NCBI GenBank assembly: GCA_021848825.1
Contig: JAJZTQ010000008.1
Span: 14,999 to 78,998, forward strand
From: Pseudomonadota bacterium
Lineage (GTDB): Bacteria > Pseudomonadota > Gammaproteobacteria > Burkholderiales > JABEVD01
Length of the DNA: 64,000 nucleotides
Direction: 5' to 3'
This document shows positions 1-48,851 of this stretch, in pieces; within the stretch, counting starts at the first letter, position 1; each line of letters starts with the position of its first letter. A program made the translations under genes and the position numbers. The notes under the pieces are model-generated. The model was not told where the DNA came from and did no database searches. It saw only the letters and a list, made by a program, of their open reading frames with translations.

Positions 1-1071
1 CGCACTTCGGATGGCGAATTCATCGTTGCCGACATGGACGGCTTCCTCAATCTCGACACCGACACGAACAGGATCGCCGTCACGGAGAAGATCGTCAACT
101 ATGGCGGCGTCAGCATGAAAACGACCGGGGATCTTCTCCTCGACGGGGAGCATTTCGAGGAGCATGGCGATATTCAGGAAAAAAGGGTGGTGGAAGGCAA
201 AAGCATCACCGTTTTCGGCGATGTCTTCGGCACAGTCGTCTCTTCAGGGGGCTTGATTCATTTCAAGAAAAACCTGGTGGGAGGCTCTGCCACGAACCAT
301 GACGGCGACATTGTCGTCGAAGGGCTAGCATCCAGCGCGATCATGCATGCAAGATACGGCGAAATCAGGCTCAAGACGGCGGAAAACTGCACCATTTCAG
401 GCAAGCATGTCGTCATCGAGCAGGCTGTCAACTGCACGGTTCTCGGTGAAACAGTGGAGATCGATCTCTGCGAAGGATCCGCCGTAGCAGGCAGGACGAT
501 AAGCATGAAGCTCGCAGGCCCCAGAAAGGAAAACCAGACGCTGGTTACGGTGCTTCTCCCGGACCTTTCCGGCATCAGAAAAAGGCTCGCCGAACTGGGC
601 GAACGCATGATAGCGATCGATGAGGAAATAGGGGAATTGAAGCAGAAAGGCGAACCGATCAGCTCCGGCAAGGAGGTCAGGAATTACCTCGCCATAGTCA
701 GCGGCGTGCAGAAAAAGGAGATCTCTCTCAGTGATGAACAGAAGGTCAATTTCCAGAAGCTCGGGATGAGGGTCGCGCCGGCCCTGAAAGCGCTCTCGGC
801 GATCAATTCGGATATCCAGGTGCTGCAGAAGGAAAAGGATGAATTGATCGAGGAGGGGCTGAAAATCGAGGACATGGAAAAGGAAGCGGTCAGGGGAATC
901 TCCTGCAACATCGAAAACATCTCCAGGGATACGCTGGTGACGAGAAGGAAGATCGAGATAGCGGAGCTCTCGCAACTGCACGCGAGGGAGTTGAGGGTCA
1001 GGCTGCTCGACCCGGGGACACCTGGAGGCCGCCTTCCCCATGACGAGAGCCTTTCCTGGACATACGCCTAG
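1..1071 (+). CDS. DUF342/FapA-like protein, C-terminal part (5' end outside window)
   Basis: Frame is open from base 1; the ORF track starts at an internal Met (34). A Gly/Val-rich repetitive beta-helix-like segment is followed by a Glu/Lys-rich coiled-coil segment, as in DUF342 proteins. Stop TAG at 1069-1071. Confidence 0.5.
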   Translation, partial: RTSDGEFIVADMDGFLNLDTDTNRIAVTEKIVNYGGVSMKTTGDLLLDGEHFEEHGDIQEKRVVEGKSITVFGDVFGTVVSSGGLIHFKKNLVGGSATNHDGDIVVEGLASSAIMHARYGEIRLKTAENCTISGKHVVIEQAVNCTVLGETVEIDLCEGSAVAGRTISMKLAGPRKENQTLVTVLLPDLSGIRKRLAELGERMIAIDEEIGELKQKGEPISSGKEVRNYLAIVSGVQKKEISLSDEQKVNFQKLGMRVAPALKALSAINSDIQVLQKEKDELIEEGLKIEDMEKEAVRGISCNIENISRDTLVTRRKIEIAELSQLHARELRVRLLDPGTPGGRLPHDESLSWTYA

Positions 1072-1127
1072 GGAACCACTGATTTATTCCCGCGCGGCCG
1101 CGTGGGAATAAATCAGTGGTTCCCTAG
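1068..1127. repeat. 60-bp near-perfect palindrome (24-bp perfect arms CTAGGGAACCACTGATTTATTCCC / GGGAATAAATCAGTGGTTCCCTAG), copy 1 of a repeated element; probable bidirectional terminator
   Basis: Arms read directly at 1068-1091 and 1104-1127. The 12-nt GC-rich spacer is itself nearly palindromic. The left arm recurs at 33417-33437. Confidence 0.9.
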
Positions 1128-2044
1128 CCCAGCATTTTTTCGTCTATCTTCTCGCGGTCGAGATGGGGCGCGAAGAAGGTGATGAAATCGTACATGTATC
1201 CCCTCAGGTAGCTGTTCTTCCTGATCGCAATCCTGGTCGTGGAGGGCTCGAAAAGATGGGAGGCATCGATTGATCTCAGCTTCCTGTCCCGCTCGGGGTC
1301 AAATGCCATTTTCGCAAGGATTCCGATGCCGAGCCCCATTTCCACATAAGTCTTGATGACGTCCGCATCTATCGCCGTCAGCACGACATTCGGCGAGAGA
1401 CCCTTCTCCTCGAAAGCCTTGTTGATTTTCGAGCGCCCCGTGAAAGCGAAATCGTAGGTGATGACGGGATATTCCGCGAGGTCCTCTATCCGCAGCCTGT
1501 TTTTCTTCAGGAGCGGATGTTTGGGCGGCGTCACGACGCATCTGTTCCACTCATAACAGGGCAGCATGACGAGATCCCCGAAAAGCTCGATCGCCTCCGT
1601 CGCAATGCCGATATCGACCTCACCCGATCTCACCATTTCCGCGATTTGCATCGGGCTTCCCTGGTGGAGATTCAGTGTGACGCCGGGATAGAGCGAGATG
1701 AATTTCCTGACAACAGCAGGCAGCACGTAGCGCGCCTGGGTATGGGTGGTTGCAATCCTGAGATTCCCGCCGGACTGGCTTCCGAATTCCTCCCCGACCC
1801 TTTTGAGGTTCTCCGAATCCTGGAGGATGCGGCTCGCGATCGAAACCACGGCCTTCCCAGGCTCGGTGACTGCGGCAAGGCGCTTGCCGTTTCGGACGAA
1901 GATATCGATGCCGAGTTCCTCTTCAAGCAGCCTGATCTGCTTGCTGATTCCCGGCTGGGAAGTATAGAGCGAATCGGCCGCGTCGGAAACGTTCAGCCCC
2001 CGCTTCACCACTTCGCAAAGAAAACGCAATTGCTGCAGCTTCAT
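1124..2044 (-). CDS. cysB: LysR-family transcriptional regulator, CysB-like
   Basis: N-terminal wHTH (MKLQQLRFLCEVV...SQPGISKQIRLLEEELG) and a length of 306 aa. Divergent from a sulfate-assimilation operon. Confidence 0.8.
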   Translation of the reverse strand: MKLQQLRFLCEVVKRGLNVSDAADSLYTSQPGISKQIRLLEEELGIDIFVRNGKRLAAVTEPGKAVVSIASRILQDSENLKRVGEEFGSQSGGNLRIATTHTQARYVLPAVVRKFISLYPGVTLNLHQGSPMQIAEMVRSGEVDIGIATEAIELFGDLVMLPCYEWNRCVVTPPKHPLLKKNRLRIEDLAEYPVITYDFAFTGRSKINKAFEEKGLSPNVVLTAIDADVIKTYVEMGLGIGILAKMAFDPERDRKLRSIDASHLFEPSTTRIAIRKNSYLRGYMYDFITFFAPHLDREKIDEKMLG

Positions 2045-2077: not shown

Positions 2078-2145
2078 ACCAAATTCTTTATGAACATATA
2101 GGCTGATTGATATCATTTCTCCAGTTTCAGCGATACGGAGAAGAA

Positions 2146-2886
2146 ATGGATTACTGGTACGCATTTTCAGGCCTGGCGATCGGCGCCATCGTGGGCATGA
2201 CGGGGGTCGGGGGTGGGGCCCTGATGACCCCGCTTCTCGTGATCGCCTTCGGCATCCCGCCTGCCATCGCAGTCGGCACCGACCTGCTCTATGGCGCACT
2301 CACCAAGGCGGGGGGCGCCTGGATTCACAGGAATGCCGTCGACTGGAAAATAGTCGGATTGCTCGCTTCAGGCAGCATCCCTGCCGCGATATTCGGCATC
2401 CTGCTGCTCGAATCGCTTCCTTCAGGCGCAACGACCCCGGTCATTTCGACCGCCCTCGGCATTGCCCTCGTGCTCACCTCGGCCGCCCTCCTCTTCCGCG
2501 AGAGGATCATGCAATCGACCCCTTCTTCGGAAGCTCATGCTGCAGCGACAGTGATTTCGGGCGCAATCATCGGATTTTTCGTATCCGTCTCTTCCATCGG
2601 CGCAGGTGCGCTCGGCACGGTCGCGCTTTTCCATCTATACCCCCGCCTGTCCGCGATCAGGGTCGTGGCAACGGACATCGCCCATGCCGTGCCATTGACG
2701 GCGATCGCAGGAACAGCCCATGCGGCAATCGGCACGGTCGACTTCCATCTGCTGGAGATGCTGATCCTGGGCTCTCTTCCAGGAATCCATATCGGAAGCC
2801 TGCTCGCTTCGAAGATTCCGGAAAAAATGCTGAGAAGGATGCTTGCCGGCATGCTGATTCTGATCGGCGGGAAACTGATTTTTTGA
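2146..2886 (+). CDS. TSUP (TauE/SafE) family anion permease
   Basis: Polytopic Gly-rich membrane protein (GMTGVGGGALMTPLL; second half-repeat SSIGAGALG). ATG 2146 is preceded by GGAG; the track's 2107 start is a TTG. Confidence 0.8.
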   Translation: MDYWYAFSGLAIGAIVGMTGVGGGALMTPLLVIAFGIPPAIAVGTDLLYGALTKAGGAWIHRNAVDWKIVGLLASGSIPAAIFGILLLESLPSGATTPVISTALGIALVLTSAALLFRERIMQSTPSSEAHAAATVISGAIIGFFVSVSSIGAGALGTVALFHLYPRLSAIRVVATDIAHAVPLTAIAGTAHAAIGTVDFHLLEMLILGSLPGIHIGSLLASKIPEKMLRRMLAGMLILIGGKLIF

Positions 2887-2898
2887 GAGAGGAAAGAC

Positions 2899-4905
2899 AT
2901 GAAACTCACCGACTCGCGTGAAATAGACAGGTTCGAGGCAGCCCTGGAAGCCTATTTCAACCTCCAGATCGATCCGGAGCGCTTCACCTCGATCAGGCTG
3001 CAGCACGGCGTATACGGCCAGCGCCAGGAAGGGGTCAACATGCTGAGAGTGAAGATTCCCGGGGGTTCGATCAATCCCGAACAGCTCGACGCCATAGCGG
3101 AAGTACTGGACACTCATTCGCAAAGCGAAGCGGCCCATGTGACGACAAGACAGGACATCCAGATCCATTCCGTTCCGCTTGCCCGAACCCCTCAAGCCAT
3201 GCGCATCCTGGCAAGAGCCGGTCTCACGACAAGGGAAGCATGCGGCAATACCGTGAGGAACATCACCGCCTGCCCCATGGCCGGCGTATGCGACGCCGAG
3301 CATGTGGACGTCTCGACGCACCTCGAAGGCGCCGTGCTGCATTTCCTGAGGAATCCGCTTTCCCAGCAGATGCCGAGGAAATTCAAGATCAGCTTCTCCG
3401 GATGCGAAGCGGATTGCGCTCAGTCTATGATCCACGATCTCGGGGTCGTTGCGCTTCACGACGGGGAGCGCTCCGGATTCAGGATCACCGCAGGAGGGGG
3501 GCTCGGCCACAAGCCTCACGAAGCGATCGTCGTCGAGGAATTCGTCGAGGAAAAGGATCTCCTGATCGTGATGGAAGCCCTGGTTTCGCTTCACAACCGC
3601 TATTCCGACAGGACGAAGCGCGCGAAATCGAGGATCAAGTTCCTCGTCGACCGCTTCGGATCGGAAGGATTCATCGAGAAATACAGGGAGGAACTCGAGA
3701 TCACGAGAAGCGCGCTGGAGGGTCAGCCCTATCCTCGGGCCGAATGGAGAAAGGGCGGCAGGCAGGCCGGCATGCAGGGCGCGCCAAGAAGCATCACCGA
3801 ACAGAAGCAGAAAGGGTTTTTTGTCTTTCCAGTCGCGCTTGAAGTCGGCAGCCTCCGTTCGAATCAGCTTCGCGGCATTGCCGAAATTGCAAAAAGGCAC
3901 GGCCTTCACGACATCCGGACCACCCAGGATCAGAATCTGATCTTTCTCGACGTTCCGGAAAAGCTGATCGCCATCCTGGACAAGGCCCTTTCAGAAATCG
4001 GGCTGGGGGCGCCCAAGACCGGAGACGATGTCACCGCCTGCCCCGGAAACTCGACATGCCGACTCGGCATCACGTCCAGCATGTCCGTGGCCGGGAAAGT
4101 CGAAGGAGGAAGGCATGACCTCAGGATCAGGATATCCGGATGCCACAACGGATGCGCACAGCCGGAAACGGGAGACATCGGAATCTACGGGGAAGGACGG
4201 CGGATCCACGGAAAGCTTGTCCCCCACTACCAGCTCTATCTGGGCGGCAATGGAACGGGTGGCGGTTCGCTCGCGATCAAGGGGCCTTCGATTCCTTCTG
4301 CGAGGATAACCGAAGCCATAGAGAGGCTGAAAGAGGCGCACGAGAACCAGCAGGAATCCTTCTTCTCATGGGTCAGGAAAATGGGAAAAGGCTACTTCGA
4401 TGCGCTTCTCTCCGATCTCGTCGAGGTGAAGCCCGAGGCCCTGCTTTCGGTCCTGCAGGACCATGGAGAAGACCGTGAATTCAGGGTTCTCCAGCTGGGC
4501 GGCGGGGAATGCGCAGGTTCATCCCAATTGAAGATAGGCTCGACATTTTTCGAGGCGGCCCATGAACGCCGTTACCGCGACGCGCTTTTCATGCAGAGAA
4601 AATACGGGGAGGCTGCGAAATGCGCGGAATCCATCCTTTCCCTGATCGGCGGAGGGCTGGTCGCGCTCCACGGCGGGCAAAGCGGGAGCGAATTCGAATC
4701 CATTTCCGCGAACCTGAAGGCGCTGATACCAGGAGACCTTTCCAGCCTTTTCGAGGAAATCGTCCACCGCCTGAAGAACGTGGAGGCCGAGTCGCTTTCC
4801 AGCCTTTTCAGGTCTATCGATGCCTGGACCCAGGATGCGGCCGAGCACTGCCTGAGGGAGGACAGCCAGCTCGATATTCTTGACGCACTACCGAGGGCCG
4901 CATGA
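2899..4905 (+). CDS. cysI: Assimilatory sulfite reductase hemoprotein (NirA/SirA/CysI family) with ~190-aa C-terminal extension
   Basis: Two ferredoxin-like/NIR_SIR half-repeats. CX5C..CX3C motifs at C125/C131/C169/C173 and at C381/C387/C415/C419. The stop overlaps the cysH start (ATGA). Confidence 0.8.
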   Translation: MKLTDSREIDRFEAALEAYFNLQIDPERFTSIRLQHGVYGQRQEGVNMLRVKIPGGSINPEQLDAIAEVLDTHSQSEAAHVTTRQDIQIHSVPLARTPQAMRILARAGLTTREACGNTVRNITACPMAGVCDAEHVDVSTHLEGAVLHFLRNPLSQQMPRKFKISFSGCEADCAQSMIHDLGVVALHDGERSGFRITAGGGLGHKPHEAIVVEEFVEEKDLLIVMEALVSLHNRYSDRTKRAKSRIKFLVDRFGSEGFIEKYREELEITRSALEGQPYPRAEWRKGGRQAGMQGAPRSITEQKQKGFFVFPVALEVGSLRSNQLRGIAEIAKRHGLHDIRTTQDQNLIFLDVPEKLIAILDKALSEIGLGAPKTGDDVTACPGNSTCRLGITSSMSVAGKVEGGRHDLRIRISGCHNGCAQPETGDIGIYGEGRRIHGKLVPHYQLYLGGNGTGGGSLAIKGPSIPSARITEAIERLKEAHENQQESFFSWVRKMGKGYFDALLSDLVEVKPEALLSVLQDHGEDREFRVLQLGGGECAGSSQLKIGSTFFEAAHERRYRDALFMQRKYGEAAKCAESILSLIGGGLVALHGGQSGSEFESISANLKALIPGDLSSLFEEIVHRLKNVEAESLSSLFRSIDAWTQDAAEHCLREDSQLDILDALPRAA

Positions 4906-5573
4906 TGGAAAAGATCGAAAAGCTTCGCCAGACGCTCGAAGCCATCTCTTCCAGCCATGCCCCTGCATGCCTCGCATGCAGCTTCGGCGTCGAGGATATG
5001 GTGCTCATCGACATGATAGCGCGGCACAAGATCGACATTTCCGCCTTCACGCTCGATACGGGCCGCCTTCACGATGAAACGTACGAGCTGATGCAGCTTG
5101 CGAAGGCGCGATATGAACTCGAAATAGCCGTCTATTTCCCGAATTCGGACGATATCGAGCGCCTCTCGAGAAAAAGCGGGCCGAACGGATTCTACGATTC
5201 CGCCGAGATCAGGAAATCCTGCTGCCGCATCAGGAAGATCGAGCCTTTGAAGCGCGCGCTCTCAGGAAAGAATGCCTGGATCACCGGATTGAGGCGGCAG
5301 CAATCCACGACGAGGAGCGATCTCAGGGCGGCGGAATACGACGCTGAAAACGGGCTTTACAAGTACAACCCGCTCTTCGAATGGAGCGAAGAAGAAATCT
5401 GGAATTACATCAGAATGCATGGCGTTCCATACAACCGGCTGCACGACTCGGGATTCCCGAGCATAGGCTGTTCTCCCTGCACCAGGGCGATAGCAAAAGG
5501 GGAGGACATCCGCGCAGGGCGCTGGTGGTGGGAAGATGCCTCGAACAGGGAATGCGGAATTCACAGGAAATAA
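4902..5573 (+). CDS. cysH: Adenylyl-sulfate (APS) / PAPS reductase, thioredoxin-dependent, Fe-S type
   Basis: PAPS_reduct fold, C-terminal ECGIH motif, and the CC...CSPC cysteines characteristic of bacterial APS reductases. Confidence 0.9.
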   Translation: MMEKIEKLRQTLEAISSSHAPACLACSFGVEDMVLIDMIARHKIDISAFTLDTGRLHDETYELMQLAKARYELEIAVYFPNSDDIERLSRKSGPNGFYDSAEIRKSCCRIRKIEPLKRALSGKNAWITGLRRQQSTTRSDLRAAEYDAENGLYKYNPLFEWSEEEIWNYIRMHGVPYNRLHDSGFPSIGCSPCTRAIAKGEDIRAGRWWWEDASNRECGIHRK

Positions 5574-5574
5574 C

Positions 5575-6474
5575 ATGAAAAAACTAGATCATCTCGATAT
5601 TCTGGAAAGCGAATCGATCCATATCATGAGGGAAGTCGCGGCAGAATGCGCGAATCCCGCCCTGCTTTTTTCAGGCGGAAAGGATTCCATCGTGCTGCTG
5701 AGGCTGGCTGAGAAGGCTTTCAGACCCGCAAGATTCCCTTTCCCTCTATTGCACATCGACACCGGACACAATTTCCCGGAAGTGATCGATTTCAGGGACA
5801 GGCGCGCGAATGAGCTTGGAGAAAGGCTGATCGTCCGCTCCATGGAAGACTCTATAAAAAACAAGCGCGTCGTGCTGAAGCGCCATGACCAGAGCAGGAA
5901 CGCCTTCCAGTCAGTGACCCTGCTGGATGCCATCGCGGAATTCAATTTCGACGCCTGCCTGGGCGGGGCCCGGCGCGACGAGGAAAAGGCGAGGGCGAAG
6001 GAAAGGATATTCTCCTTCAGGGACGAATTCGGCCAATGGGATCCGAAAAACCAGAGGCCCGAATTGTGGGACATCTACAATACCCGCGTTCATCCTGGAG
6101 AAAACATCCGGGTTTTCCCCATCAGCAACTGGACTGAACTCGATATCTGGCAATACATCAGACGGGAGAAACTGGAAATCCCCGGCATCTATTTCGCGCA
6201 CAGCCGGGAAGTAATCAGGCGAGGAAACGGCCTGATGCCAGTCTCCCATCTCGTGAAGCCGCTCGAGGGGGAAAAAACGGAGAAGATTTCCGTCAGATTC
6301 AGGACGGTCGGCGACATGACCTGCACCTGCCCCGTCGAATCGATCGCATCGAACCTGGAAGAGATCATCATGGAAACGGCTGCGACCAGGATCACGGAAA
6401 GGGGGGCGACGAGGATGGACGACCAGACTTCCGACGCCTCCATGGAACTCAGAAAAAGGGAAGGATACTTCTGA
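5575..6474 (+). CDS. cysD: Sulfate adenylyltransferase subunit 2
   Basis: [21 protein letters not shown]... and [12 protein letters not shown]-loop. ATG 5575 follows the cysH stop by 1 nt. Confidence 0.95.
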
Positions 6475-7700
6475 TGAAAACAATGCTCAGGTTCATCACT
6501 GCAGGGAGCGTCGACGACGGCAAGAGCACCCTGATAGGGCGGCTGCTCCACGATTCGAAATCGATCTTCGAGGACCAGCTCTCGGCCATGGAGAAAACGA
6601 CGAAGAGAAGGGGATTGCAGGGGATCGATCTTTCTTTGCTTACCGATGGCCTCCAGGCCGAACGCGAGCAGGGGATCACGATCGACGTCGCTTACCGCTA
6701 TTTCTCGACGCCGAAAAGAAAATTCATCATCGCCGACACCCCCGGGCACGAGCAGTATACCCGCAACATGGTGACCGGCGCATCTACTGCGAATCTCGCG
6801 ATCATCCTGATAGATGCAAGGCGAGGCGTGCTCACTCAGACGAAGCGCCACGCCTATCTCGCGAGCCTGGTCGGCATTCCCCATCTCGTCGTGGCGGTCA
6901 ACAAGATGGATCTCGTCGGCTATTCGAAAGAGGCTTTCGAATCCATCGTGGCCGAATTTTCCGATTTTGCAGCCAGGCTAGACATCGAGGACATCGTTGC
7001 CATCCCGATGTCGGCGCTCGAAGGCGACAATGTCGTCGAAAAAACGGAAAACATGCCATGGTACGAAGGGGAGACGCTTCTTTCCGTTCTCGAGAACGTC
7101 GAAAGAGAACAGGATATCGGCGATTTCAGGTTCCCTGTTCAATGGGTATGCAGGCCCGGGCAGGGCTTCAGGGGATACATGGGCAGGATAGAATCGGGAA
7201 GCGTCGCTGTAGGCGACGAAATAGCCGTTCTTCCTTCCGGAAGAAATTCGAGGATCCGGGAAATCCATACCTTCGACGGCCCGCTTCTCGAAGCAGTCGC
7301 CCCGCAGTCCGTCACCCTGCTCCTCGAAGAAGAGCTCGACATATCGCGAGGCGACATGATCGTGAAACGGGACAACCAGCCGAAGCTATCCAGGACATTC
7401 GAGGCGATGCTCTGCTGGCTTTCCGAGGAGCCGCTCGATGCCAAAAGAAAATACCTGATCAAGCATGGGACCAGAACGTCGAAAATCGTCTTCGAGAAAA
7501 TAGATTACAGGGTGAATGTCAATTCTCTCGAGCAGGAATCGGGGATCGCCTCGCTTTCCATGAACGACATCGCAAGGGTCGGATTGAGGGCCCAGCATGC
7601 CCTCGCCGCGGACAGCTATGCGAAGAACCGCGCCACCGGAAGTTTCATCCTGATAGACGAATTCACCAACAATACGGTCGCGGCGGGCATGATGACCTGA
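6474..7700 (+). CDS. cysN: Sulfate adenylyltransferase subunit 1 (GTPase), no fused APS-kinase domain
   Basis: [14 protein letters not shown] and NKMD GTPase motifs. At 408 aa there is no CysC domain. The start overlaps the cysD stop. Confidence 0.95.
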
Positions 7701-43079: not shown

Positions 43080-43100
43080 TTTCCAGCATTGACAATTCAG

Positions 43101-43144
43101 GGTTTCCCAAAGGCGGGGAGCCGTTTCTCAGGACAAAGGCGTCC
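43101..43144 (+). promoter_or_regulatory. ANTAR-target-like leader 2: GGTTTCCC[AAAGGC]GGGGAGCC and GGAC[AAAGGC]GTCC
   Basis: Two hexaloops with A1/G4. Hairpin 2 shares 43138-43144 with the terminator stem. Confidence 0.7.
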
Positions 43145-43181
43145 ATGGCTGATATTTCAGCCATGGACGCCTTTTTGTTTT
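43138..43181 (+). terminator. Intrinsic terminator (15-bp perfect stem, 4-nt loop, TTTTTGTTTT) 16 nt upstream of narK
   Basis: GGCGTCCATGGCTGA-TATT-TCAGCCATGGACGCC read directly. Confidence 0.85.
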
Positions 43182-43196
43182 CGAAAGGAAAAGGAA

Positions 43197-44408
43197 ATGA
43201 AAACGAGCTTCTGGAAGGCCGGGCATGCGCCCACGCTGTTTGCTGCGTTTCTCTATTTCGACGTCAGCTTCATGGTCTGGGTGATACTGGGTCCGCTCGG
43301 CGTCCAGATCGCTTCGTCATTGGGACTGAATGCGGCCCAGAAAGGCATGATGGTCGCCACCCCCGTCCTCGCCGGCGCGCTTCTCAGGATCGTGATGGGC
43401 ATGCTGGTCGACCATCTGAAGCCGAAGCTGGCCGGCATCGTCGGCCAGCTTGCCGTGATGCTTGCACTCGTCCTGGCCTGGCTCTTCGGCATCCATGATT
43501 ACAGCCAGGTGCTGATACTGGGCGCGTTCCTCGGCTTTGCCGGCGCCTCCTTCGCAGTGGCATTGCCGCTCGCTTCCCGCTGGTATCCTCCCGAGCACCA
43601 GGGCACTGCGCTGGGCATTGCCGGGGCGGGCAATTCGGGAACCGTTCTGGCTGCCCTTTTCGCACCCACCCTTGCGCTCTGGTATGGCTGGAACAACGTC
43701 CTGGGATTCGCCCTGATTCCGCTTTTCATCGCCTTCATGGTCTATGTTTTCGTGGCGAAGGACAGCCCTGAATGCCCTCCCCCCAAGACGCTTGTCGAAT
43801 ATGCCCGGGTATTGAAGGACAGGGATGCATGGTGGTTCATGTTCTTCTACAGCGTGACTTTCGGCGGCTTCGTCGGACTCGCCTCTTCACTCTCGATCTA
43901 TTTTCATGACCAGTACGGGCTTTCCGCAGTCAAGGCGGGCTTCTACACGGCCGCCTGCGTATTTGCAGGGTCTCTCGTCCGTCCCATGGGCGGCGCGCTG
44001 GCGGACAGGATAGGGGGCGTGCGCACCCTTTCCTTCATGTACGTGATTGCCTCGATCAGCCTCTTCGTCATGAGCTCCGGTCTTTCCGATGTCAACGCCA
44101 CGCTGGCCGTGTGCGTCTTGGCCATGCTTTCTCTGGGCATGGGCAACGGCGCGATTTTCCAGCTCGTTCCCCAGCGCTTCAGGAAGGAAATCGGGGTGAT
44201 GACGGGGCTCGTCGGCATGGCGGGCGGAATCGGCGGATTCTATCTCGCATCGAGCCTCGGCTACTTCAAGGCGCATACGGGCGACTACAAAATCGGCCTG
44301 ATGATCTTCGCCGGCATGGCCGTCCTGGCGCTGACCGGATTGAGCAGCGTGAAGAAGAGATGGAGAACCACATGGGGCGCACTGAATCTCAGCGCGGCGA
44401 AGATCTGA
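43197..44408 (+). CDS. narK: MFS nitrate/nitrite transporter (NarK/NasA type)
   Basis: 12-TM MFS with nitrate-signature-like Gly-rich motifs (GFAGASFAV, GIAGAGNSG, GMAGGIGG). ATG 43197 follows GGAAAAGGAA. Confidence 0.9.
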   Translation: MKTSFWKAGHAPTLFAAFLYFDVSFMVWVILGPLGVQIASSLGLNAAQKGMMVATPVLAGALLRIVMGMLVDHLKPKLAGIVGQLAVMLALVLAWLFGIHDYSQVLILGAFLGFAGASFAVALPLASRWYPPEHQGTALGIAGAGNSGTVLAALFAPTLALWYGWNNVLGFALIPLFIAFMVYVFVAKDSPECPPPKTLVEYARVLKDRDAWWFMFFYSVTFGGFVGLASSLSIYFHDQYGLSAVKAGFYTAACVFAGSLVRPMGGALADRIGGVRTLSFMYVIASISLFVMSSGLSDVNATLAVCVLAMLSLGMGNGAIFQLVPQRFRKEIGVMTGLVGMAGGIGGFYLASSLGYFKAHTGDYKIGLMIFAGMAVLALTGLSSVKKRWRTTWGALNLSAAKI

Positions 44409-46075
44409 TGGATTTCCTGAGCATCTCGCACGGCGCTTCAAGCGACAGGGGTCGGCGCGACCGCAACGAAGACTTCTTCGGCGCGGTGACCCCCGAAGAC
44501 CGCCTGCTCGACACCCGCGGCATCCTGGTGGCCATCGCTGACGGCGTGAGCGGCAATACGGGCGGGAGGGAAGCAGCTGAATACACGGTGAGAAGCGTGC
44601 TGAGCGACTATTATGCGACGCCCGAGACATGGGGAATCCCGAATTCCCTGGACAAGCTTCTCTCGGCCGCCAATCGCTGGCTGCTCGCCCAGAAGGGGAG
44701 TCTCACCGGCATGGCGAGCACGGTGAGCCTGCTCGTCCTGAAAGGGGATCGCTATACCATCGCCCATGTCGGGGATACCCGGATCTACCTCAGGCGCGGC
44801 GAAAGCCTGACACTCCTCACCACGGACCATGTCTGGGAAGGCCCGGAACTGCGCCATGTGTTGAAAAGAGCCGTGGGCCTGGATCAGCACCTGACGGTCG
44901 ATTACAGCGAAGGGCAATTGAGGGAAAAGGATGTCTTCCTGCTCGTCACGGACGGCGTGTGGGAGCGTCTCGGACAGAAGAGGATGCACGAGATCCTCAA
45001 CCTTCACGAAAATCCCGAAAGAAGCGCAAAAGTGCTCGTCGAACAGGCCCTGGCTTCGGGCGGACAGGACAACGCGACCGCCCAGGTGGTGAAGATAGAA
45101 AGCCTGGGACGGGGCATGCTTCTCGAAGGCCGGGATCTCCCGCTTCCGCCCAGGTTGAAAGTCGGGCAGAAACTGGACGGATACGAGATCCTGGAAATCA
45201 TGCACGATTCCCGGGAAACGATCCTCTACAAGGTCAGGGAAGAATCGAGCCGCAAGCATTTCGTGCTGAAAACGCTGCAGCCATCGATGCAGCAGGACGA
45301 GAAGGCCTGCAGCAGCCTGCTCACGGAGGAATGGCTGGGCAAGCGCATCCAGTCCCATTATTTCCCGCAAGTCGTCCCAGCCTCTTCCGGAAAACGCACT
45401 GCGCTCTATTACGTGATGACCTGGCATGACGGCGCGACGCTTGCCGCACATATCGAAAGCGGAAGGCATTTCCCCGTCGTCGAGGCCAGACAGATCGGCA
45501 TCAGGCTGGCCAAGGGACTGGCCGCCCTGCACCGGCTCAACATCATCCATCGCGACATCAAGCCCGACAATATCCTGCTCGGAGAAGACGGAAAACTGCG
45601 CATCCTCGATCTGGGCGTGGCCCTGAATCCCGCCCTGAACGCCGAAGAAAACGATGCCAATCCGGGGACGCCGAGCTACATGGCGCCGGAGCGCATCAAG
45701 GGGGAAGAGGCGACCTTCGGCAGCGATCTCTACAGTGTCGGCGTCACGCTCTATCATCTGCTGACAAGGAAATATCCGTACGGCGAAATCGAGCCTTTCC
45801 AGCATCCCAGATTCCCGGATCCTGTTCCGCCCACGCGCTATCGCCCGGACATCCCGGGATGGTTCGAAGCCATCATCCTCAAGGCTGTGCAGAGAAACCC
45901 GTCGCATCGGTACGAATTTCCGGAAGCGCTTCTTCTCGATCTCGAACTTGGCGAGCAGCCTGCATTCCAGAGCCCGTCAAGCCCGAAAAGAAGCCGGCCT
46001 TCCGTCTGGCAGATTGCTGCCGTCCTGTCCGTCCTTTTGAACCTTTTCCTGCTCTACCTGGCTGGAATCGGCTGA
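44408..46075 (+). CDS. Fused PP2C-type Ser/Thr phosphatase / Hanks-type Ser/Thr kinase with C-terminal membrane anchor
   Basis: PP2C motifs RDRNEDFF, ADGVSG, TDGVWE, GGQDNAT. Kinase motifs VLKTL, HRDIKPDNILL, DLG, SYMAPE. C-terminal hydrophobic helix. The ATG overlaps the narK stop. Confidence 0.85.
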   Translation: MDFLSISHGASSDRGRRDRNEDFFGAVTPEDRLLDTRGILVAIADGVSGNTGGREAAEYTVRSVLSDYYATPETWGIPNSLDKLLSAANRWLLAQKGSLTGMASTVSLLVLKGDRYTIAHVGDTRIYLRRGESLTLLTTDHVWEGPELRHVLKRAVGLDQHLTVDYSEGQLREKDVFLLVTDGVWERLGQKRMHEILNLHENPERSAKVLVEQALASGGQDNATAQVVKIESLGRGMLLEGRDLPLPPRLKVGQKLDGYEILEIMHDSRETILYKVREESSRKHFVLKTLQPSMQQDEKACSSLLTEEWLGKRIQSHYFPQVVPASSGKRTALYYVMTWHDGATLAAHIESGRHFPVVEARQIGIRLAKGLAALHRLNIIHRDIKPDNILLGEDGKLRILDLGVALNPALNAEENDANPGTPSYMAPERIKGEEATFGSDLYSVGVTLYHLLTRKYPYGEIEPFQHPRFPDPVPPTRYRPDIPGWFEAIILKAVQRNPSHRYEFPEALLLDLELGEQPAFQSPSSPKRSRPSVWQIAAVLSVLLNLFLLYLAGIG

Positions 46076-46103
46076 ATTATCGAAACTTGTGAAGGAGATT
46101 GAA

Positions 46104-48536
46104 ATGCAGAAACTGAAGCTTGTGGTAGTGGGAAACGGCATGGCCGGCATGAAGGTCGTGGAAGAATTGTTGAAAATAGGGCCCGATCTCTACGAAATCA
46201 CGGTATTCGGCGCAGAGCCCTATCCCAATTACAACCGCATCATGCTCTCCCCGGTTCTCGCCGGGGAACAGAAATTCGAAGACATCATTCTCAACAGCCT
46301 GGGCTGGTACGAAGAAAACGGCATCAGGCTGCATCTGGGCAAGAAAGTCCTCAGAATAGACAGGCAAAGGCGGATTGTCGAAGCCGAAGAAGGCATGGAG
46401 GTGGAATACGACAGACTGCTGCTCGCCACCGGATCGAGCCCTTTCATCCTGCCGGTGCCGGGACGGGATCTCGATGGGGTGATCGCGTACCGCGACATCC
46501 AGGATACCGAAAAGATGATCGAGACGGCAGAGAAGCACCGGCATGCCGTGGTCATCGGCGGCGGACTGCTGGGGCTGGAAGCGGCGAACGGCCTCAGGCT
46601 CCGCGGCATGGACGTGACCGTGGTTCATCTCGCGTCATGGCTGATGGAGCGCCAGCTCGACAGGCATGCCGGCAAGATGCTTCAATGCGAACTCGAGAAG
46701 CGGGGATTGAAATTTCTGCTCGAGAAGAAAACCGAAGCGCTGCTCGGGAATGAAGGCCGGGTATGCGGGGTGCGCTTCTCCGACGGCGGGGAAATCCCGG
46801 CGGACCTGGTGGTGATGGCAGTCGGGATCAAGCCCAACACGCAGCTTGCGGAATCGGCAGGAATACATTGCAACAGGGGAATCGTGGTCGACGACACGAT
46901 GCAGACATTCGATCCGAAAATCTACGCAGTCGGGGAATGCGTCTCCCACAGAGGAACGAGCTATGGTCTGGTCGCGCCGCTCTTCGACATGGCAAAAGTC
47001 TGCGCGAACCATCTGGCGATGATGGGAATAGGAAGATATGCCGGATCGTTCACCGCGACGAAGCTCAAGGTGACGGGAATCGATCTCTTTTCTGCCGGAA
47101 AGTTCGAAGGCGACGAGCATTCCGAGGAGATCGTGCTGAACGACGTGGCGGGCGGGGTCTACAAGAAGATCACGATCCGCGACGGCAAGATCGTCGGCAC
47201 GGTGCTTTATGGCGATACCGTCGACGGACAATGGTATTTCAGGATGCTGAAGGAAGGGCAGGACATCGGCGAAATCAGGGGCAACCTGATGTTCGGCCAG
47301 AGTCATCTCGGCAACGCGGGACACGAGGGTCGCGTGCAGGCGTCCAGCATGACGGACGACATGGAAGTGTGCGGATGCAACGGCGTGTGCAAGGGCACGA
47401 TCACGAAAGCGATCAAGGAAAAGGGGCTTTTCACGCTCGAAGAGGTGAGAAAGCATACCAAGGCATCGAGCTCCTGCGGATCCTGCACCGGACTCGTCGA
47501 ACAGATTCTCGCATCCGAACTGGGAGGCGGCTATTCGCCGAAAACCAGCGCCGAAAAGCCGCTCTGTGCGTGCACCGAGCATACCCATGCCGACCTGCGC
47601 AAGGCCATCAGGGAAGAGAAGCTGCTCTCGATTCCGGAAGTGATGGCCTTCATGAACTGGAAGACGCAGAACGGCTGCTCGACCTGCCGTCCCGCGCTCA
47701 ATTATTATCTCATCTCGACCTGGCCTCACGAGGCGATGGACGACCCCCAGTCGCGCTTCGTCAACGAAAGGGTTCATGCCAACATCCAGAAGGACGGGAC
47801 TTTTTCGGTTGTGCCGAGGATGTACGGCGGGATCACCAATCCCGAACAGCTGCGCAGGATCGCGGATGTCGCCGACAAATACCGGGTGCCGATGGTCAAG
47901 GTGACGGGCGGGCAGCGAATCGACCTGCTCGGCGTCAGGCGGGAGGATCTGCCTGCAATATGGTCGGATCTCGACATGCCGTCGGGCTATGCCTACGGCA
48001 AGTCGATACGCACCGTGAAGACCTGCGTCGGCACCGAATTCTGCCGCTTCGGCACGCAGGATTCGACAGGCCTCGGCATCATGCTCGAGCAGGCATTCGA
48101 CAGGATGTGGGCGCCGCACAAGGTGAAGATGGCCGTATCGGGATGTCCGAGGAACTGCGCCGAATCCACCATCAAGGATGTCGGCATCATCGGGGTCGAA
48201 TCGGGCTGGGAAATCTATGTCGCGGGCAACGGCGGCATCAAGGCGGAGGTTTCGCAATTTCTCGCGAAGGTGAAGACGAAGGAGGAAGCCATGGAATATT
48301 CGGGCGCCTTCCTCCAGCTCTACCGGGAGGAAGCCTATTATCTGGAAAGGACAGTCCACTGGATCGGGCGGGTCGGACTCGACTACGCGAGATCGAGGGT
48401 GGCTGAAGATGAGGAAAACCGGCGCGCATTGTACCAGCGCCTGCTCTATGCGCTCTCCGGCGAGCGCGATCCCTGGAAGTCCGTTGTCGAAAGGGAAAGA
48501 AAGCCTCTTTTCGAATCGCTCATGGTGGAGGCATGA
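46104..48536 (+). CDS. nirB: Assimilatory nitrite reductase [NAD(P)H] large subunit
   Basis: VVVGNGMAG FAD motif, BFD-like CGCNGVC...CGSC, and the siroheme/[4Fe-4S] cysteines (CVGTEFC...SGCPRNC). AAGGAG SD before ATG 46104. Confidence 0.95.
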   Translation: MQKLKLVVVGNGMAGMKVVEELLKIGPDLYEITVFGAEPYPNYNRIMLSPVLAGEQKFEDIILNSLGWYEENGIRLHLGKKVLRIDRQRRIVEAEEGMEVEYDRLLLATGSSPFILPVPGRDLDGVIAYRDIQDTEKMIETAEKHRHAVVIGGGLLGLEAANGLRLRGMDVTVVHLASWLMERQLDRHAGKMLQCELEKRGLKFLLEKKTEALLGNEGRVCGVRFSDGGEIPADLVVMAVGIKPNTQLAESAGIHCNRGIVVDDTMQTFDPKIYAVGECVSHRGTSYGLVAPLFDMAKVCANHLAMMGIGRYAGSFTATKLKVTGIDLFSAGKFEGDEHSEEIVLNDVAGGVYKKITIRDGKIVGTVLYGDTVDGQWYFRMLKEGQDIGEIRGNLMFGQSHLGNAGHEGRVQASSMTDDMEVCGCNGVCKGTITKAIKEKGLFTLEEVRKHTKASSSCGSCTGLVEQILASELGGGYSPKTSAEKPLCACTEHTHADLRKAIREEKLLSIPEVMAFMNWKTQNGCSTCRPALNYYLISTWPHEAMDDPQSRFVNERVHANIQKDGTFSVVPRMYGGITNPEQLRRIADVADKYRVPMVKVTGGQRIDLLGVRREDLPAIWSDLDMPSGYAYGKSIRTVKTCVGTEFCRFGTQDSTGLGIMLEQAFDRMWAPHKVKMAVSGCPRNCAESTIKDVGIIGVESGWEIYVAGNGGIKAEVSQFLAKVKTKEEAMEYSGAFLQLYREEAYYLERTVHWIGRVGLDYARSRVAEDEENRRALYQRLLYALSGERDPWKSVVERERKPLFESLMVEA

Positions 48537-48841
48537 TGGAAAACTGGATCAAGGTATGCGAACTGGAAGACATCCCTCAGCTAGGCGCCAGGGTGGTCAA
48601 GGGAAAGTCGTGCGAAATCGCGCTCTTCAGGGAGGGCGACAGGATCTATGCGCTGCACGACAAGTGCCCTCACAAGGGCGGCCCGCTCTCGCAGGGAATC
48701 GTCAGCAAGGGTCGGGTCACCTGCCCCCTTCACGGCATGAACATCGGCCTGGAAGACGGACGGGCGATTTCTCCTGACGAAGGCTGCACCGAGACTTTTT
48801 CAGTCAGGATCGAAGAGGGCGCAGTCTATATTTCACTCTGA
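48533..48841 (+). CDS. nirD: Nitrite reductase small subunit (Rieske-like fold)
   Basis: 102 aa with CPHKGGPLSQG...CPLHG. ATGA overlap with nirB. Confidence 0.9.
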   Translation: MMENWIKVCELEDIPQLGARVVKGKSCEIALFREGDRIYALHDKCPHKGGPLSQGIVSKGRVTCPLHGMNIGLEDGRAISPDEGCTETFSVRIEEGAVYISL

Positions 48842-48851
48842 TCGGGAAGAA

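What the first reader, a model, noticed from the sequence alone, without database searches (positions are those of the whole stretch)
2899..4905. Sulfite reductase with two complete siroheme/[4Fe-4S] cysteine motifs and a ~190-aa helical C-terminal extension
The protein has the usual two NIR/SIR half-repeats, but both carry a full CX5C-Xn-CX3C set. The N-terminal half has C125-X5-C131...C169-X3-C173 (ITACPMAGVC...FSGCEADC). The C-terminal half has C381-X5-C387...C415-X3-C419 (TACPGNSTC...SGCHNGC). In the characterised assimilatory enzymes I recall (E. coli CysI, M. tuberculosis SirA, plant NiR/SiR), only the C-terminal repeat keeps these ligands. Here the N-terminal set has the more canonical ~38-residue spacing. 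Residues ~475-668 form an extra, apparently helical region that I cannot assign, and it does not look like DUF934. No cysJ-like flavoprotein or DUF934 gene is present in the operon. The protein could therefore be a two-centre or permuted-active-site sulfite reductase with a built-in docking domain for its electron donor.
Basis: partly seen in the sequence, partly recalled or inferred. Interest (0 to 1): 0.55.

Follow-up and report, generated by a model that had tools for sequence, protein, structure and literature searches.

The report
Sulfite reductase with extra cysteine sites
This is the ordinary-looking sulfite reductase of a sulfate-assimilation operon, but it belongs to a large unstudied branch that keeps a second iron-sulfur-type cysteine motif that textbooks say such enzymes lost, and it carries an invariant cysteine on a C-terminal loop, so it may work differently from the E. 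coli and plant models.

Summary
ORF 2899-4905 encodes a 668-aa two-repeat siroheme sulfite/nitrite-reductase-type protein. It has CX5C...CX3C in both halves, in register with each other, and about 165 extra C-terminal residues (not about 190).

- The canonical site is intact: C381/C387/C415/C419 plus the substrate-binding R84/R120/K161/K163. The active site is therefore not permuted.
- The mirror positions that would have to bind a second substrate and siroheme are D/D/D/R and are not conserved. A second catalytic centre is unlikely.
- The N-half cysteines are invariant in 129 of 129 full-length relatives, down to 35% identity. I think they most likely hold a second, non-catalytic [4Fe-4S] cluster, like the "structural" site of DsrA.

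The extension has two parts. The first is an invariant Gly-rich Glu-Cys loop (GGGECAG). It defines a wider clade that includes Thermus, Bacteroidota and others. All 117 short-form members end exactly two residues after that cysteine. The second part is a lineage-restricted helical bundle with no significant fold or family match. Nothing identifies it as a donor-docking domain.

The cysB-tauE-SiR-cysH-cysD-cysN order is conserved in 80 genomes. I found no solved structure, curated family or paper for this clade. I call it a new variant of a known kind.

The parts
2899..4905 (+). Sulfite reductase gene, 668 aa: a two-repeat siroheme SiR/NiR-type hemoprotein with a C-terminal extension
   Evidence: The AF2 model has pLDDT 82.8. 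The best fold matches are 1zj8, plant NiR/SiR and E. coli SiRHP.
3013..3699 (+). N-terminal half-repeat: NIR_SIR_ferr at residues 39-106 and NIR_SIR at residues 115-267
   Evidence: Pfam best stretches. The same region also matches the cofactor-bearing domain of Fsr.
3148..3387 (+). Canonical substrate/siroheme-binding residues R84 (3148-3150), R120 (3256-3258), K161 (3379-3381) and K163 (3385-3387)
   Evidence: These columns hold R/R/K/K in every SiR/NiR aligned, including Salmonella CysI and Nostoc Sir. Equating them with E. coli R83/R153/K215/K217 rests on my own knowledge.
3271..3417 (+). N-half cysteine set C125, C131, C169, C173 (C115 lies at 3241-3243). Proposed second, non-catalytic [4Fe-4S] site.
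   Evidence: Invariant in 120/120 close and 9/9 distant full-length relatives.
3787..4410 (+). C-terminal half-repeat, residues about 297-504
   Evidence: Alignment to NiR and NirA structures and to NCBIfam models; AF2 secondary structure.
4039..4155 (+). Canonical siroheme-coupled [4Fe-4S] ligands C381, C387, C415 and C419
   Evidence: They align to the cluster cysteines of tobacco NiR and are invariant in all sequences compared.
4411..4527 (+). Linker plus the Gly-rich Glu-Cys loop. GGGECAG is residues 534-540 (4498-4518); C538 is at 4510-4512.
   Evidence: G534, G536, E537, C538 and A539 are invariant from the window through P0145 and P0167 to Thermus and Aureibacter. E-C is present in 120+9+117 sequences. 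All 117 short forms end 2 residues after the Cys. pLDDT is below 50 at residues 525-543.
4528..4902 (+). C-terminal helical bundle (helices 544-565, 569-590, 599-609, 613-626, 630-654)
   Evidence: AF2 models. No Pfam hit. Only 51 cluster representatives among 1.84 billion match the C-terminal query (residues 499-668), and the full-length matches are SiR-type proteins. There is no significant PDB fold match; the weak matches include HEPN and nucleotidyltransferase C-terminal domains.
1124..2044 (-). cysB-family LysR regulator, transcribed divergently
   Evidence: NF009327, 508.8 bits against a cut-off of 402. Found in 76 of the 80 related loci.
2107..2886 (+). TauE/SafE (TSUP) family membrane protein immediately upstream of the SiR gene
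   Evidence: PF01925, E = 2.3e-45. Present in the Gallionella-type and nearest loci, absent from Nitrosospira and Nitrosomonas loci. Also present in the Thermus operon.
4902..5573 (+). cysH, APS-reductase type. Its C-terminus carries RECGIH.
   Evidence: TIGR02055, 264.9 bits against a cut-off of 235.3; sequence.
5536..6474 (+). cysD
   Evidence: NF009214, 470.6 bits against a cut-off of 413.
6474..7700 (+). cysN, 408 aa. Its alignment to the bifunctional CysN/CysC model stops at profile position 430 of 632, so it appears to lack an APS-kinase domain.
   Evidence: NF003478, 633 bits against a cut-off of 590. The NF004035 hit stops at 430/632.

Best explanation
This is the assimilatory sulfite reductase of a CysB-controlled APS-pathway operon (tauE-SiR-cysH-cysD-cysN).

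Catalysis takes place at the canonical site. A siroheme is coupled to a [4Fe-4S] cluster held by C381, C387, C415 and C419, and sulfite is bound by R84, R120, K161 and K163. This much is shown by alignment.

The N-terminal half has kept the ancestral CX5C...CX3C motif. I infer that it holds a second, non-catalytic [4Fe-4S] cluster at the pseudo-symmetric position, comparable to the 'structural' centre of DsrA. A second siroheme is doubtful, because the basic residues that should anchor it are replaced by Asp and are not conserved.

The C-terminal extension has two parts. The first is an invariant Gly-rich Glu-Cys loop that defines a wider clade of sulfite reductases; short forms of that clade end two residues after the cysteine. 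The second is a lineage-restricted helical bundle. I infer, with low confidence, that C538 is a functional thiol on a flexible arm that reaches the active-site funnel. It could act as a sulfur acceptor or redox partner, in the way of the DsrC C-terminal arm or the ECGLH tail of CysH. It could instead act as a removable cap on the siroheme. The helical bundle would then be an accessory module that positions or shields the arm.

The electron donor is probably a ferredoxin encoded elsewhere in the genome (inferred).
For: Identity and role:
- Pfam and NCBIfam hits; best sequence and fold matches are Fd-dependent NirA/SirA, NiR and SiR.
- The cysB | (tauE) | SiR | cysH | cysD | cysN order is conserved in 80 species genomes.
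- The same window carries separate NarK, NirB and NasA-like genes, so nitrite assimilation is covered elsewhere.

Canonical site: R84/R120/K161/K163 and the C-half cysteines are conserved in all SiR/NiR compared.

Second cluster:
- The N-half set is in register with the C-half set (E = 3e-9).
- It is invariant in 120/120 close and 9/9 distant full-length relatives down to 35% identity, whereas only about 12% of columns are invariant in the distant-member alignment A3.
- The 'CAQ....D(L/I)G' context after CX3C is shared by both halves.
- The cofactor loops of both halves have similarly low pLDDT.
- Two other lineages keep four candidate N-half ligands. Haloarchaeal NiR has C115/C125/C169/C173 in 120/120 sequences. 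The Thermus-type short form has C115 in 114, C125 in 117, C169 in 116 and H173 in 117 of 117 sequences.

No second catalytic site: positions 344/376/407/409 are D/D/D/R and vary among distant members. In Fsr/DsrAB the siroheme is anchored by basic residues of the partner half.

Glu-Cys loop:
- Invariant across the proteobacterial, Bacteroidota and Thermus-type sequences compared.
- All 117 short forms end exactly 2 residues after the Cys.
- The E-C-bearing sequences form one clade in a rough NJ tree.
- One distant member carries a further TusA domain, 30.9 bits against a cut-off of 28.6.
Against: - No cofactor content can be read from sequence. The N-half cysteines could bind zinc, form disulfides or simply stabilise the fold.
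- By analogy with Fsr/DsrAB (sirohemes 9.4 A apart), a cluster at the second site without a second siroheme may lie too far from the active siroheme to relay electrons. That would leave it only a structural role.
- AF2 gives pLDDT below 50 for residues 525-543, and I had no coordinates, so the position of C538 relative to the active site is unknown.
- Three of the four TusA-like fusions lack the TusA active-site cysteine. This weakens the sulfur-relay reading.
- Aureibacter's helical domain shows no detectable similarity to this one, so the two helical domains may not be homologous.
- The conserved N-half pattern differs between lineages (CCCC, C-S-C-H, C115-based). That could mean different or no metal sites.
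Confidence: 0.55

Rival explanations
1. Two-centre enzyme: both halves bind siroheme-[4Fe-4S], and both reduce sulfite.
For: Both halves carry a full CX5C...CX3C, including the cysteine that would bridge to siroheme (C173 aligns with C419). Fsr dimers have two active centres built from identical halves.
Against: The residues that would bind the second substrate and siroheme are the C-half equivalents of R84/R120/K161/K163. In the window they are D344/D376/D407/R409, and they are not conserved in distant members that keep all four N-half cysteines. The Thermus-type relatives have His and Ser/Ala at two ligand positions.
Confidence: 0.07
2. Permuted active site: the N-half set is the working centre and the C-half set is vestigial.
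For: The N-half spacing (38 residues from C131 to C169) is closer to the E. coli spacing than the C-half spacing of 28. The E. coli figure is from my own knowledge.
Against: The C-half cysteines are invariant in every SiR, NiR and CobG sequence compared. The substrate-binding R/R/K/K residues sit in the N-half, as required for a C-half-bound cluster. Relatives in the same clade lack the N-half set yet sit in sulfate-assimilation or siroheme operons.
Confidence: 0.03
3. The N-half cysteines bind no Fe-S cluster. They are a conserved structural feature (a zinc site, disulfides or packing) left over from the duplication.
For: Ligand identity differs between lineages: CCCC, C-S/A-C-H, and C115/C125/C169/C173. 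Bacteroidota members of the same clade do without these cysteines.
Against: Four cysteines in the exact register of a known [4Fe-4S] motif, invariant down to 35% identity in a cytoplasmic protein, are most simply read as a cluster site. Disulfides are unlikely in a reducing cytoplasm next to a low-potential redox centre (inference).
Confidence: 0.25
4. The C-terminal extension is a docking or adaptor domain for the electron donor (ferredoxin, flavodoxin or a reductase). It would replace CysJ or DUF934 partners.
For: No donor gene lies in the operon or in 80 syntenic loci. Relatives that lack the extension are followed by a DUF934 gene.
Against: Short-form clade members have no helical domain and no DUF934 neighbour. 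The invariant element is a Glu-Cys loop rather than a surface patch. There is no fold match to any known docking module.
Confidence: 0.2
5. The enzyme is physiologically a nitrite reductase rather than a sulfite reductase.
For: The best NCBIfam and PDB scores are to NirA and ferredoxin-nitrite reductase models. Some database records call homologues nitrite reductase.
Against: All those scores fall far below the family cut-offs. The gene sits between tauE and cysH-cysD-cysN under cysB in 80 genomes. The window has its own NarK, NirB and nitrate reductase genes. M. tuberculosis 'NirA', the best fold match, is titled a sulfite reductase in a reference listed in PMC8092218.
Confidence: 0.05

Closest known systems
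Ferredoxin-dependent monomeric sulfite/nitrite reductases (M. tuberculosis NirA/SirA 1zj8; plant NiR 3b0h/2akj; maize SiR 5h8v)
   Same: The two-repeat fold matches (Foldseek E = 6e-28, TM 0.74 to 1zj8). The C-half CX5C...CX3C and the R/R/K/K substrate residues match. The gene lies in an assimilatory operon.
   Different: Identity is only 23-25%. Scores fall below every curated family cut-off. The N-half keeps a full cysteine motif that these enzymes lack. There is an added C-terminal Glu-Cys loop and helical bundle.
E. coli / Salmonella CysI (SiRHP) with CysJ
   Same: Same superfamily and the same active-site columns. Both are cys-regulon members under CysB.
   Different: There is no cysJ. 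The match to the CysI models starts only at residue about 156. The N-half of CysI has N/L/P/D where this protein has the four cysteines.
Dissimilatory sulfite reductase DsrAB with DsrC
   Same: As a concept, both pseudo-symmetric halves keep a cluster motif, with one catalytic and one 'structural' centre. A flexible arm carrying a cysteine near a C-terminus may approach the siroheme.
   Different: This is a single fused polypeptide with no inserted ferredoxin domains. It has CX5C rather than the DsrB CXnCCX3C motif. It has no sequence or fold similarity to DsrC, and fold similarity to DsrA/B is only weak. The context is assimilatory.
F420-dependent sulfite reductase Fsr (7np8/7npa)
   Same: The N-half resembles the single cofactor-bearing SiR domain of Fsr, including its cysteines (E = 4.6e-14). 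Fsr shows what a symmetric two-centre arrangement looks like.
   Different: Fsr is a homo-oligomer of one-repeat domains fused to an F420H2 oxidase and ferredoxin domains. Both of its centres are catalytic.
Short-form 'GECA-tail' sulfite reductases (Thermus, Marinithermus, Acidobacteria, Chlamydiae, Omnitrophica; 572-653 aa)
   Same: They fall in the same clade in a rough NJ tree and are about 40% identical. They have the same invariant G-x-G-E-C-A motif and sit in sulfate-assimilation/siroheme operons with TauE.
   Different: They end two residues after the cysteine, with no helical bundle. Their N-half pattern is C-S/A-C-H rather than C-C-C-C. They are also uncharacterised.
Haloarchaeal ferredoxin-nitrite reductase
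   Same: It also keeps four invariant N-half cysteines (C115/C125/C169/C173 equivalents in 120/120 sequences).
   Different: It lies on a different branch, has no Glu-Cys loop and no extension, and position 131 is D/T/S.

Membership tests
Siroheme sulfite/nitrite reductase superfamily (Pfam NIR_SIR + NIR_SIR_ferr, two repeats) | Two NIR_SIR_ferr and two NIR_SIR domains above the Pfam gathering scores | tested here: met
   PF01077 scores 152.5 bits against a cut-off of 27. PF03460 scores 111.6 bits against a cut-off of 24. Each has two stretches.
Siroheme sulfite/nitrite reductase superfamily | C-half CX5C...CX3C ligands plus the four basic substrate-binding residues | tested here: met
   C381/C387/C415/C419 align to the NiR ligands. 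R84/R120/K161/K163 are in the conserved columns.
Siroheme sulfite/nitrite reductase superfamily | Bound siroheme and [4Fe-4S]; six-electron reduction of sulfite | not testable with these tools
   This needs purified protein.
CysI, NADPH-SiR hemoprotein (TIGR02041 / NF010029) | Score above the curated equivalog cut-off; cysJ partner present | tested here: not met
   117.3 bits against 756.55, and 165.5 bits against 457. No cysJ in the operon or in 80 related loci.
Ferredoxin-dependent sulfite reductase 'sir' (TIGR02042) | Score above the curated cut-off | tested here: not met
   108.8 bits against 731.5.
NirA family / ferredoxin-nitrite reductase (NF007126, NF007125) | Score above the curated cut-off | tested here: not met
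   215.4 bits against 523, and 203.3 bits against 594. These are the best-scoring models but fall far below threshold.
DsrAB-type dissimilatory sulfite reductase | Separate A and B subunits with inserted ferredoxin domains; DsrB CXnCCX3C motif; dsrC and dsrMK context | tested here: not met
   The dsrA and dsrB models score 30-38 bits against cut-offs of 341-393. The protein is a single polypeptide with CX5C motifs, in a cys-operon context.
DsrC/TusE sulfur carrier | DsrC fold with a conserved C-terminal arm cysteine | tested here: not met
   No Pfam hit for residues 499-668 even at E <= 10. No DsrC among the fold matches. Only a functional analogy is proposed.
HEPN-like helical bundle | Match to the HEPN profile or fold | tested here: inconclusive
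   No Pfam hit for the window domain. Foldseek gives E > 0.4, with HEPN 2q00 at probability 0.85 and TM 0.58 among other generic bundles. The Aureibacter relative has a sub-threshold HEPN hit, 17.8 bits against 22.
DUF934-partnered NirA-like sulfite reductases (Burkholderia, Ralstonia) | Adjacent DUF934 gene; same branch | tested here: not met
   No DUF934 gene in the window operon or related loci. The DUF934-linked enzymes form a separate branch and lack both the N-half cysteines and the E-C loop.
'GECA' clade proposed here (no curated model) | Invariant G-x-G-E-C-A motif about 35 residues after the SiR core; monophyly | tested here: met
   The motif is present in the window and in 120+9+117 relatives. 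These form a single clade in an NJ tree of the core. The tree is a rough method without support values.

The most novel reading that the evidence does not exclude
This clade could be an evolutionary and mechanistic intermediate between dissimilatory and assimilatory sulfite reductases. It would be a fused enzyme that still carries the second (DsrA-like) metallocentre. Its own C-terminal Glu-Cys arm would play the part of DsrC. C538 would enter the siroheme funnel and take the partly reduced sulfur as a protein persulfide. That sulfur would be handed on to cysteine synthesis, through the fused TusA domain in some members, instead of being released as free sulfide. Alternatively, C538 would resolve the CysH thiosulfonate and so channel sulfite directly into the reductase.
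Probability: 0.12. Interest if true: 0.85.

Novelty: new variant of a known kind. Interest (0 to 1): 0.6.

Why it matters
[quoted passage not shown] In this work the proteobacterial lineage keeps a complete N-half cluster-type motif under strong purifying selection. The Thermus-type short forms and the haloarchaeal nitrite reductases keep variant four-ligand sets. The loss was therefore neither universal nor a single event, and living enzymes may preserve the intermediate state.

The invariant Glu-Cys arm defines a large clade with no structure, no curated family and no biochemistry that I could find. The clade includes ammonia oxidisers, iron oxidisers, Thermus and Bacteroidota. If that thiol takes part in catalysis or sulfur hand-off, it would bear directly on a recent claim that assimilatory reductases release sulfane sulfur rather than sulfide (PMC13188885). 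All of this can be tested with one recombinant protein and a handful of point mutants.

Tried and rejected
- Pfam on residues 499-668 at E <= 10 returned nothing, so there is no DUF934, DsrC, TusA or HEPN hit.
- Foldseek of the C-terminal model against the PDB gave no match below E = 0.4.
- An hhalign comparison of the window's C-terminal alignment with the Aureibacter C-terminal domain found no similarity.
- A search for a conserved donor gene in 80 syntenic loci found only shadow ORFs beyond cysB, tauE, SiR, cysH, cysD and cysN. A motif scan of the whole window for ferredoxin-type ORFs found none.
- Seven literature searches found no paper on this clade, on a second cluster in assimilatory enzymes, or on the Glu-Cys tail. 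The library lacks most subscription journals, so this is not proof of absence.
- I considered that P0005 (1002 aa) was a new fusion. I rejected this because its insert is a repeat of its own residues, which looks like an assembly or gene-call artefact.
- I considered using the TusA fusion as strong support for a sulfur relay and downgraded it. Only P0145 passes the Pfam cut-off and keeps the cysteine.
- I could not measure Cys-Cys or Cys538-to-siroheme-pocket distances, because model coordinates are not exposed.
Full report
**1. The observation**

The ORF at 2899-4905 (+) encodes 668 aa. It starts at an ATG preceded by AGGAAAGAC. Its cysteines lie at 115, 125, 131, 169, 173, 381, 387, 415, 419, 538, 575 and 651.

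Pfam finds two NIR_SIR_ferr and two NIR_SIR stretches. A BLASTP of residues 31-285 against 286-505 (E = 3e-9) aligns C125 with C381, C131 with C387, C169 with C415 and C173 with C419. Against tobacco nitrite reductase (3b0h, E = 3e-40), the C-half set falls on the known cluster/siroheme ligands. The N-half set falls on 'vrnpvgnplagi' and 'vcvigshdly', where the plant enzyme has no cysteine.

Homology to NirA/NiR models and structures ends at about residue 494-504. The true extension is therefore about 165 residues.

**2. What the gene is**

The neighbourhood runs as follows:
- a divergent cysB-family regulator (1124-2044, minus strand);
- a TauE/SafE-family membrane protein (2107-2886);
- the reductase;
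- an APS-reductase-type cysH (4902-5573);
- cysD (5536-6474);
- cysN, which appears to lack a kinase domain (6474-7700).

A scan of one genome per species found 522 loci encoding relatives. The best 80 are all full length. I compared their ORFs with the window's proteins. cysB, SiR and cysH-cysD-cysN were present in the same order wherever the contig extended far enough. tauE was present in the Gallionella-type and nearest MAG loci, and absent from Nitrosospira and Nitrosomonas loci. No other real gene is conserved there.

The hosts include cultured Nitrosomonas, Nitrosospira and Nitrosovibrio species and Sideroxyarcus emersonii, together with Gallionella, Sideroxydans and other MAGs. The window also carries NarK, NirB (947 bits) and an assimilatory nitrate-reductase-like gene at 43-51.5 kb, so nitrite assimilation has its own enzyme. 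The protein is therefore the assimilatory sulfite reductase of these bacteria.

It reaches no curated NCBIfam cut-off. The best score is NirA family at 215 bits against 523; CysI scores 117 against 757; sir scores 109 against 732. No solved structure is closer than about 23-25% identity.

**3. The canonical site is intact; a second catalytic site is unlikely**

I aligned 25 diverse sequences. They comprised the window and close and distant relatives, the Thermus-type forms, Aureibacter, Deinococcus, Acinetobacter, two DUF934-linked enzymes, Clostridium, a haloarchaeal NiR, Salmonella CysI, Nostoc Sir and CobG.

In the 24 SiR/NiR sequences, R84, R120, K161 and K163 and the four C-half cysteines are invariant; CobG differs only at position 163. 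From my own knowledge, these are the columns of E. coli R83, R153, K215 and K217.

The Fsr structure paper states that each siroheme is anchored by basic residues of one half, while the other half binds the coupled cluster. It also states that the two sirohemes of Fsr/DsrAB lie 9.4 A apart. A second working centre here would therefore need basic residues at the C-half equivalents. Those positions are D344, D376, D407 and R409 in the window. They vary (N/R/A/Q, P/Q, G/L/T, Q/N) among distant members that still keep all four N-half cysteines.

So a permuted active site is not supported, and a second catalytic centre is unlikely. A second siroheme is doubtful on electrostatic grounds. That last point is inference.

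**4. The N-half motif is under selection**

All of C125, C131, C169 and C173 are present in 120/120 close homologues (58-100% identity). They are also present in 9/9 full-length distant representatives (35-49% identity). Only about one column in eight is invariant in the distant-member alignment. The sequence after CX3C is also similar in the two halves (CAQSMIHDLGV against CAQPETGDIGI).

Within the same clade the pattern changes:
- 117 short-form enzymes (Thermus, Marinithermus, Acidobacteria, Chlamydiae, Omnitrophica) have C125, S/A131, C169 and H173, plus C115 in 114 of 117.
- The Bacteroidota member examined has none of the four.

On another branch, 120 haloarchaeal ferredoxin-nitrite reductases keep C115, C125, C169 and C173. 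Those sequences are at least 76% identical to one another, so their conservation is less informative.

CysI, cyanobacterial Sir, Deinococcus, Clostridium, the DUF934-linked enzymes and CobG have lost the set. The simplest reading is that the motif is ancestral, was lost several times, and is retained for a function in this lineage. The most likely function is binding a [4Fe-4S] cluster.

This conflicts with the general statement that assimilatory enzymes lost one site and that the N-half is only structural (PMC10229431). Cofactor content cannot be settled from sequence.

**5. The extension**

The full-length AF2 model (pLDDT 82.8, pTM 0.74) shows the SiR fold. After it come short helices, a low-confidence loop at 525-543, and five confident helices at 544-654. 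A separate model of residues 484-668 agrees.

*The helical bundle.* Residues 499-668 have no Pfam match. In a HMMER scan of 1.84 billion cluster representatives, this query found only 51 matches. All are fragments or 676-777-aa proteins with the match at about 505-680, and the nine full-length ones I aligned are SiR-type. Foldseek against the PDB gives nothing below E = 0.4. The weak matches are generic bundles, including a HEPN protein and nucleotidyltransferase C-terminal domains.

*The loop.* The informative element is G534, G536, E537, C538 and A539. These are invariant from the window through two distant relatives (P0145, P0167) to Thermus oshimai (40% identity) and Aureibacter tunicatorum (31%). 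The Thermus enzyme lies in a sulfate-assimilation/siroheme operon that also has a TauE gene. It stops at '...GRGECAV'. All 117 short forms stop exactly two residues after the cysteine.

The sequences that carry Glu-Cys form one clade in a neighbour-joining tree of the core region. This is a rough method without support values.

Aureibacter has its own helical domain after the loop. It gives a sub-threshold HEPN hit and shows no detectable similarity to the window's domain.

Four distant proteobacterial members add a further TusA-like domain of about 80 aa. Only one of them passes the Pfam cut-off and keeps the TusA cysteine.

**6. Mechanism**

Shown by alignment: the canonical catalytic site, the operon role, and the conservation patterns.

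Inferred with moderate confidence: a second, non-catalytic Fe-S cluster in the N-half, analogous to the DsrA structural centre.

Inferred with low confidence: C538 is a functional thiol on a flexible arm. Two precedents, both from established knowledge, make this reasonable:
- The C-terminal arm of DsrC carries a cysteine that enters DsrAB and takes the sulfur intermediate (summarised).
- The flexible C-terminal ECGLH tail of APS/PAPS reductases carries the catalytic cysteine. The window's own CysH ends '...NRECGIHRK'.

A removable distal cap on the siroheme is an alternative role for C538.

The donor is probably a ferredoxin encoded elsewhere, because the nearest characterised relatives are ferredoxin-dependent. 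This is inference. No candidate is encoded in the operon, and a cysteine-motif scan found no ferredoxin-type ORF anywhere in the window.

**7. Comparison and novelty**

The protein works like a monomeric NirA/SirA-type sulfite reductase. It is a member of the superfamily, but of no curated family. It differs in three ways: the retained N-half motif, the Glu-Cys loop and the helical bundle.

The sequences are abundant in databases under the generic name 'nitrite/sulfite reductase'. I found no paper, structure or family model that addresses them.

I classify it as a new variant of a known kind, with interest 0.6. The surprise is real, but it rests on sequence inference. Part of it, N-half cysteines in other lineages, shows that the feature is broader than this family rather than unique to it.

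Noticed in passing
L081:5977-7698 (Thermus oshimai plasmid pTHEOS01) and proteins P0172-P0291: A widespread short form of the same clade (572-653 aa; Thermus, Marinithermus, Acidobacteria, Chlamydiae, Omnitrophica). All 117 sequences end exactly two residues after the invariant Cys (..GxGEC-A-V/G/S/A). They keep C115, C125, C169 and H173 in the N-half, which could be a 3Cys+1His site.
   Followed up: partly
L089:857-2560 (Haladaptatus plasmid) and proteins P0292-P0411: Haloarchaeal ferredoxin-nitrite reductases keep four invariant N-half cysteines (equivalents of C115, C125, C169 and C173; CX9C...CX3C) in 120/120 sequences. In L089 the next gene encodes an F420 hydrogenase/dehydrogenase beta-subunit-like protein.
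   Followed up: partly
proteins P0145, P0154, P0156, P0160 (distant 755-777-aa relatives): These carry a further C-terminal TusA-like domain of about 80 aa after the helical bundle. Only P0145 passes the Pfam TusA cut-off and keeps the CP-motif cysteine. The other three have G, P or S at that position.
   Followed up: partly
L082:5959-8112 (Aureibacter tunicatorum plasmid pAT3): A Bacteroidota clade member of 718 aa, followed by cobA and a sirohydrochlorin ferrochelatase gene. It has the GVGECAG loop and a helical C-terminal domain with a sub-threshold HEPN hit. It has none of the four N-half cysteines.
   Followed up: partly
window 2107-2886: A TauE/SafE (TSUP) family membrane protein gene sits 12 bases upstream of the reductase. 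It recurs in the Gallionella-type loci and in the Thermus sulfate-assimilation operon, but not in Nitrosospira or Nitrosomonas loci. It may be the sulfate or sulfite transporter of the operon.
   Followed up: partly
window 4902-7700: cysH is of the APS-reductase type (CC...CxxC cysteines, C-terminal RECGIH). cysN (408 aa) appears to lack an APS-kinase domain, so the pathway probably runs through APS rather than PAPS. The cysH start overlaps the SiR stop (ATGA at 4902-4905).
   Followed up: partly
window 43089-51515: A nitrate-assimilation cluster: a NarK-type transporter (43089-44408), a Ser/Thr kinase/phosphatase-like ORF (44111-46075), NirB (46089-48536) and a NasA/NasC-like nitrate reductase (48852-51515).
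   Followed up: partly
protein P0005 (1002 aa, a MAG 'Gammaproteobacteria bacterium'): This apparent long homologue contains an internal repeat of its own residues of about 300 aa, and a low-complexity tail. It is probably an assembly or gene-calling artefact and not a new architecture.
   Followed up: no
window 34-1071: A FapA-family ORF (flagellar assembly protein A, beta-solenoid) lies upstream of cysB. It appears truncated relative to the homologues of about 640 aa in the nearest MAG loci, probably because the window begins inside the gene.
   Followed up: no
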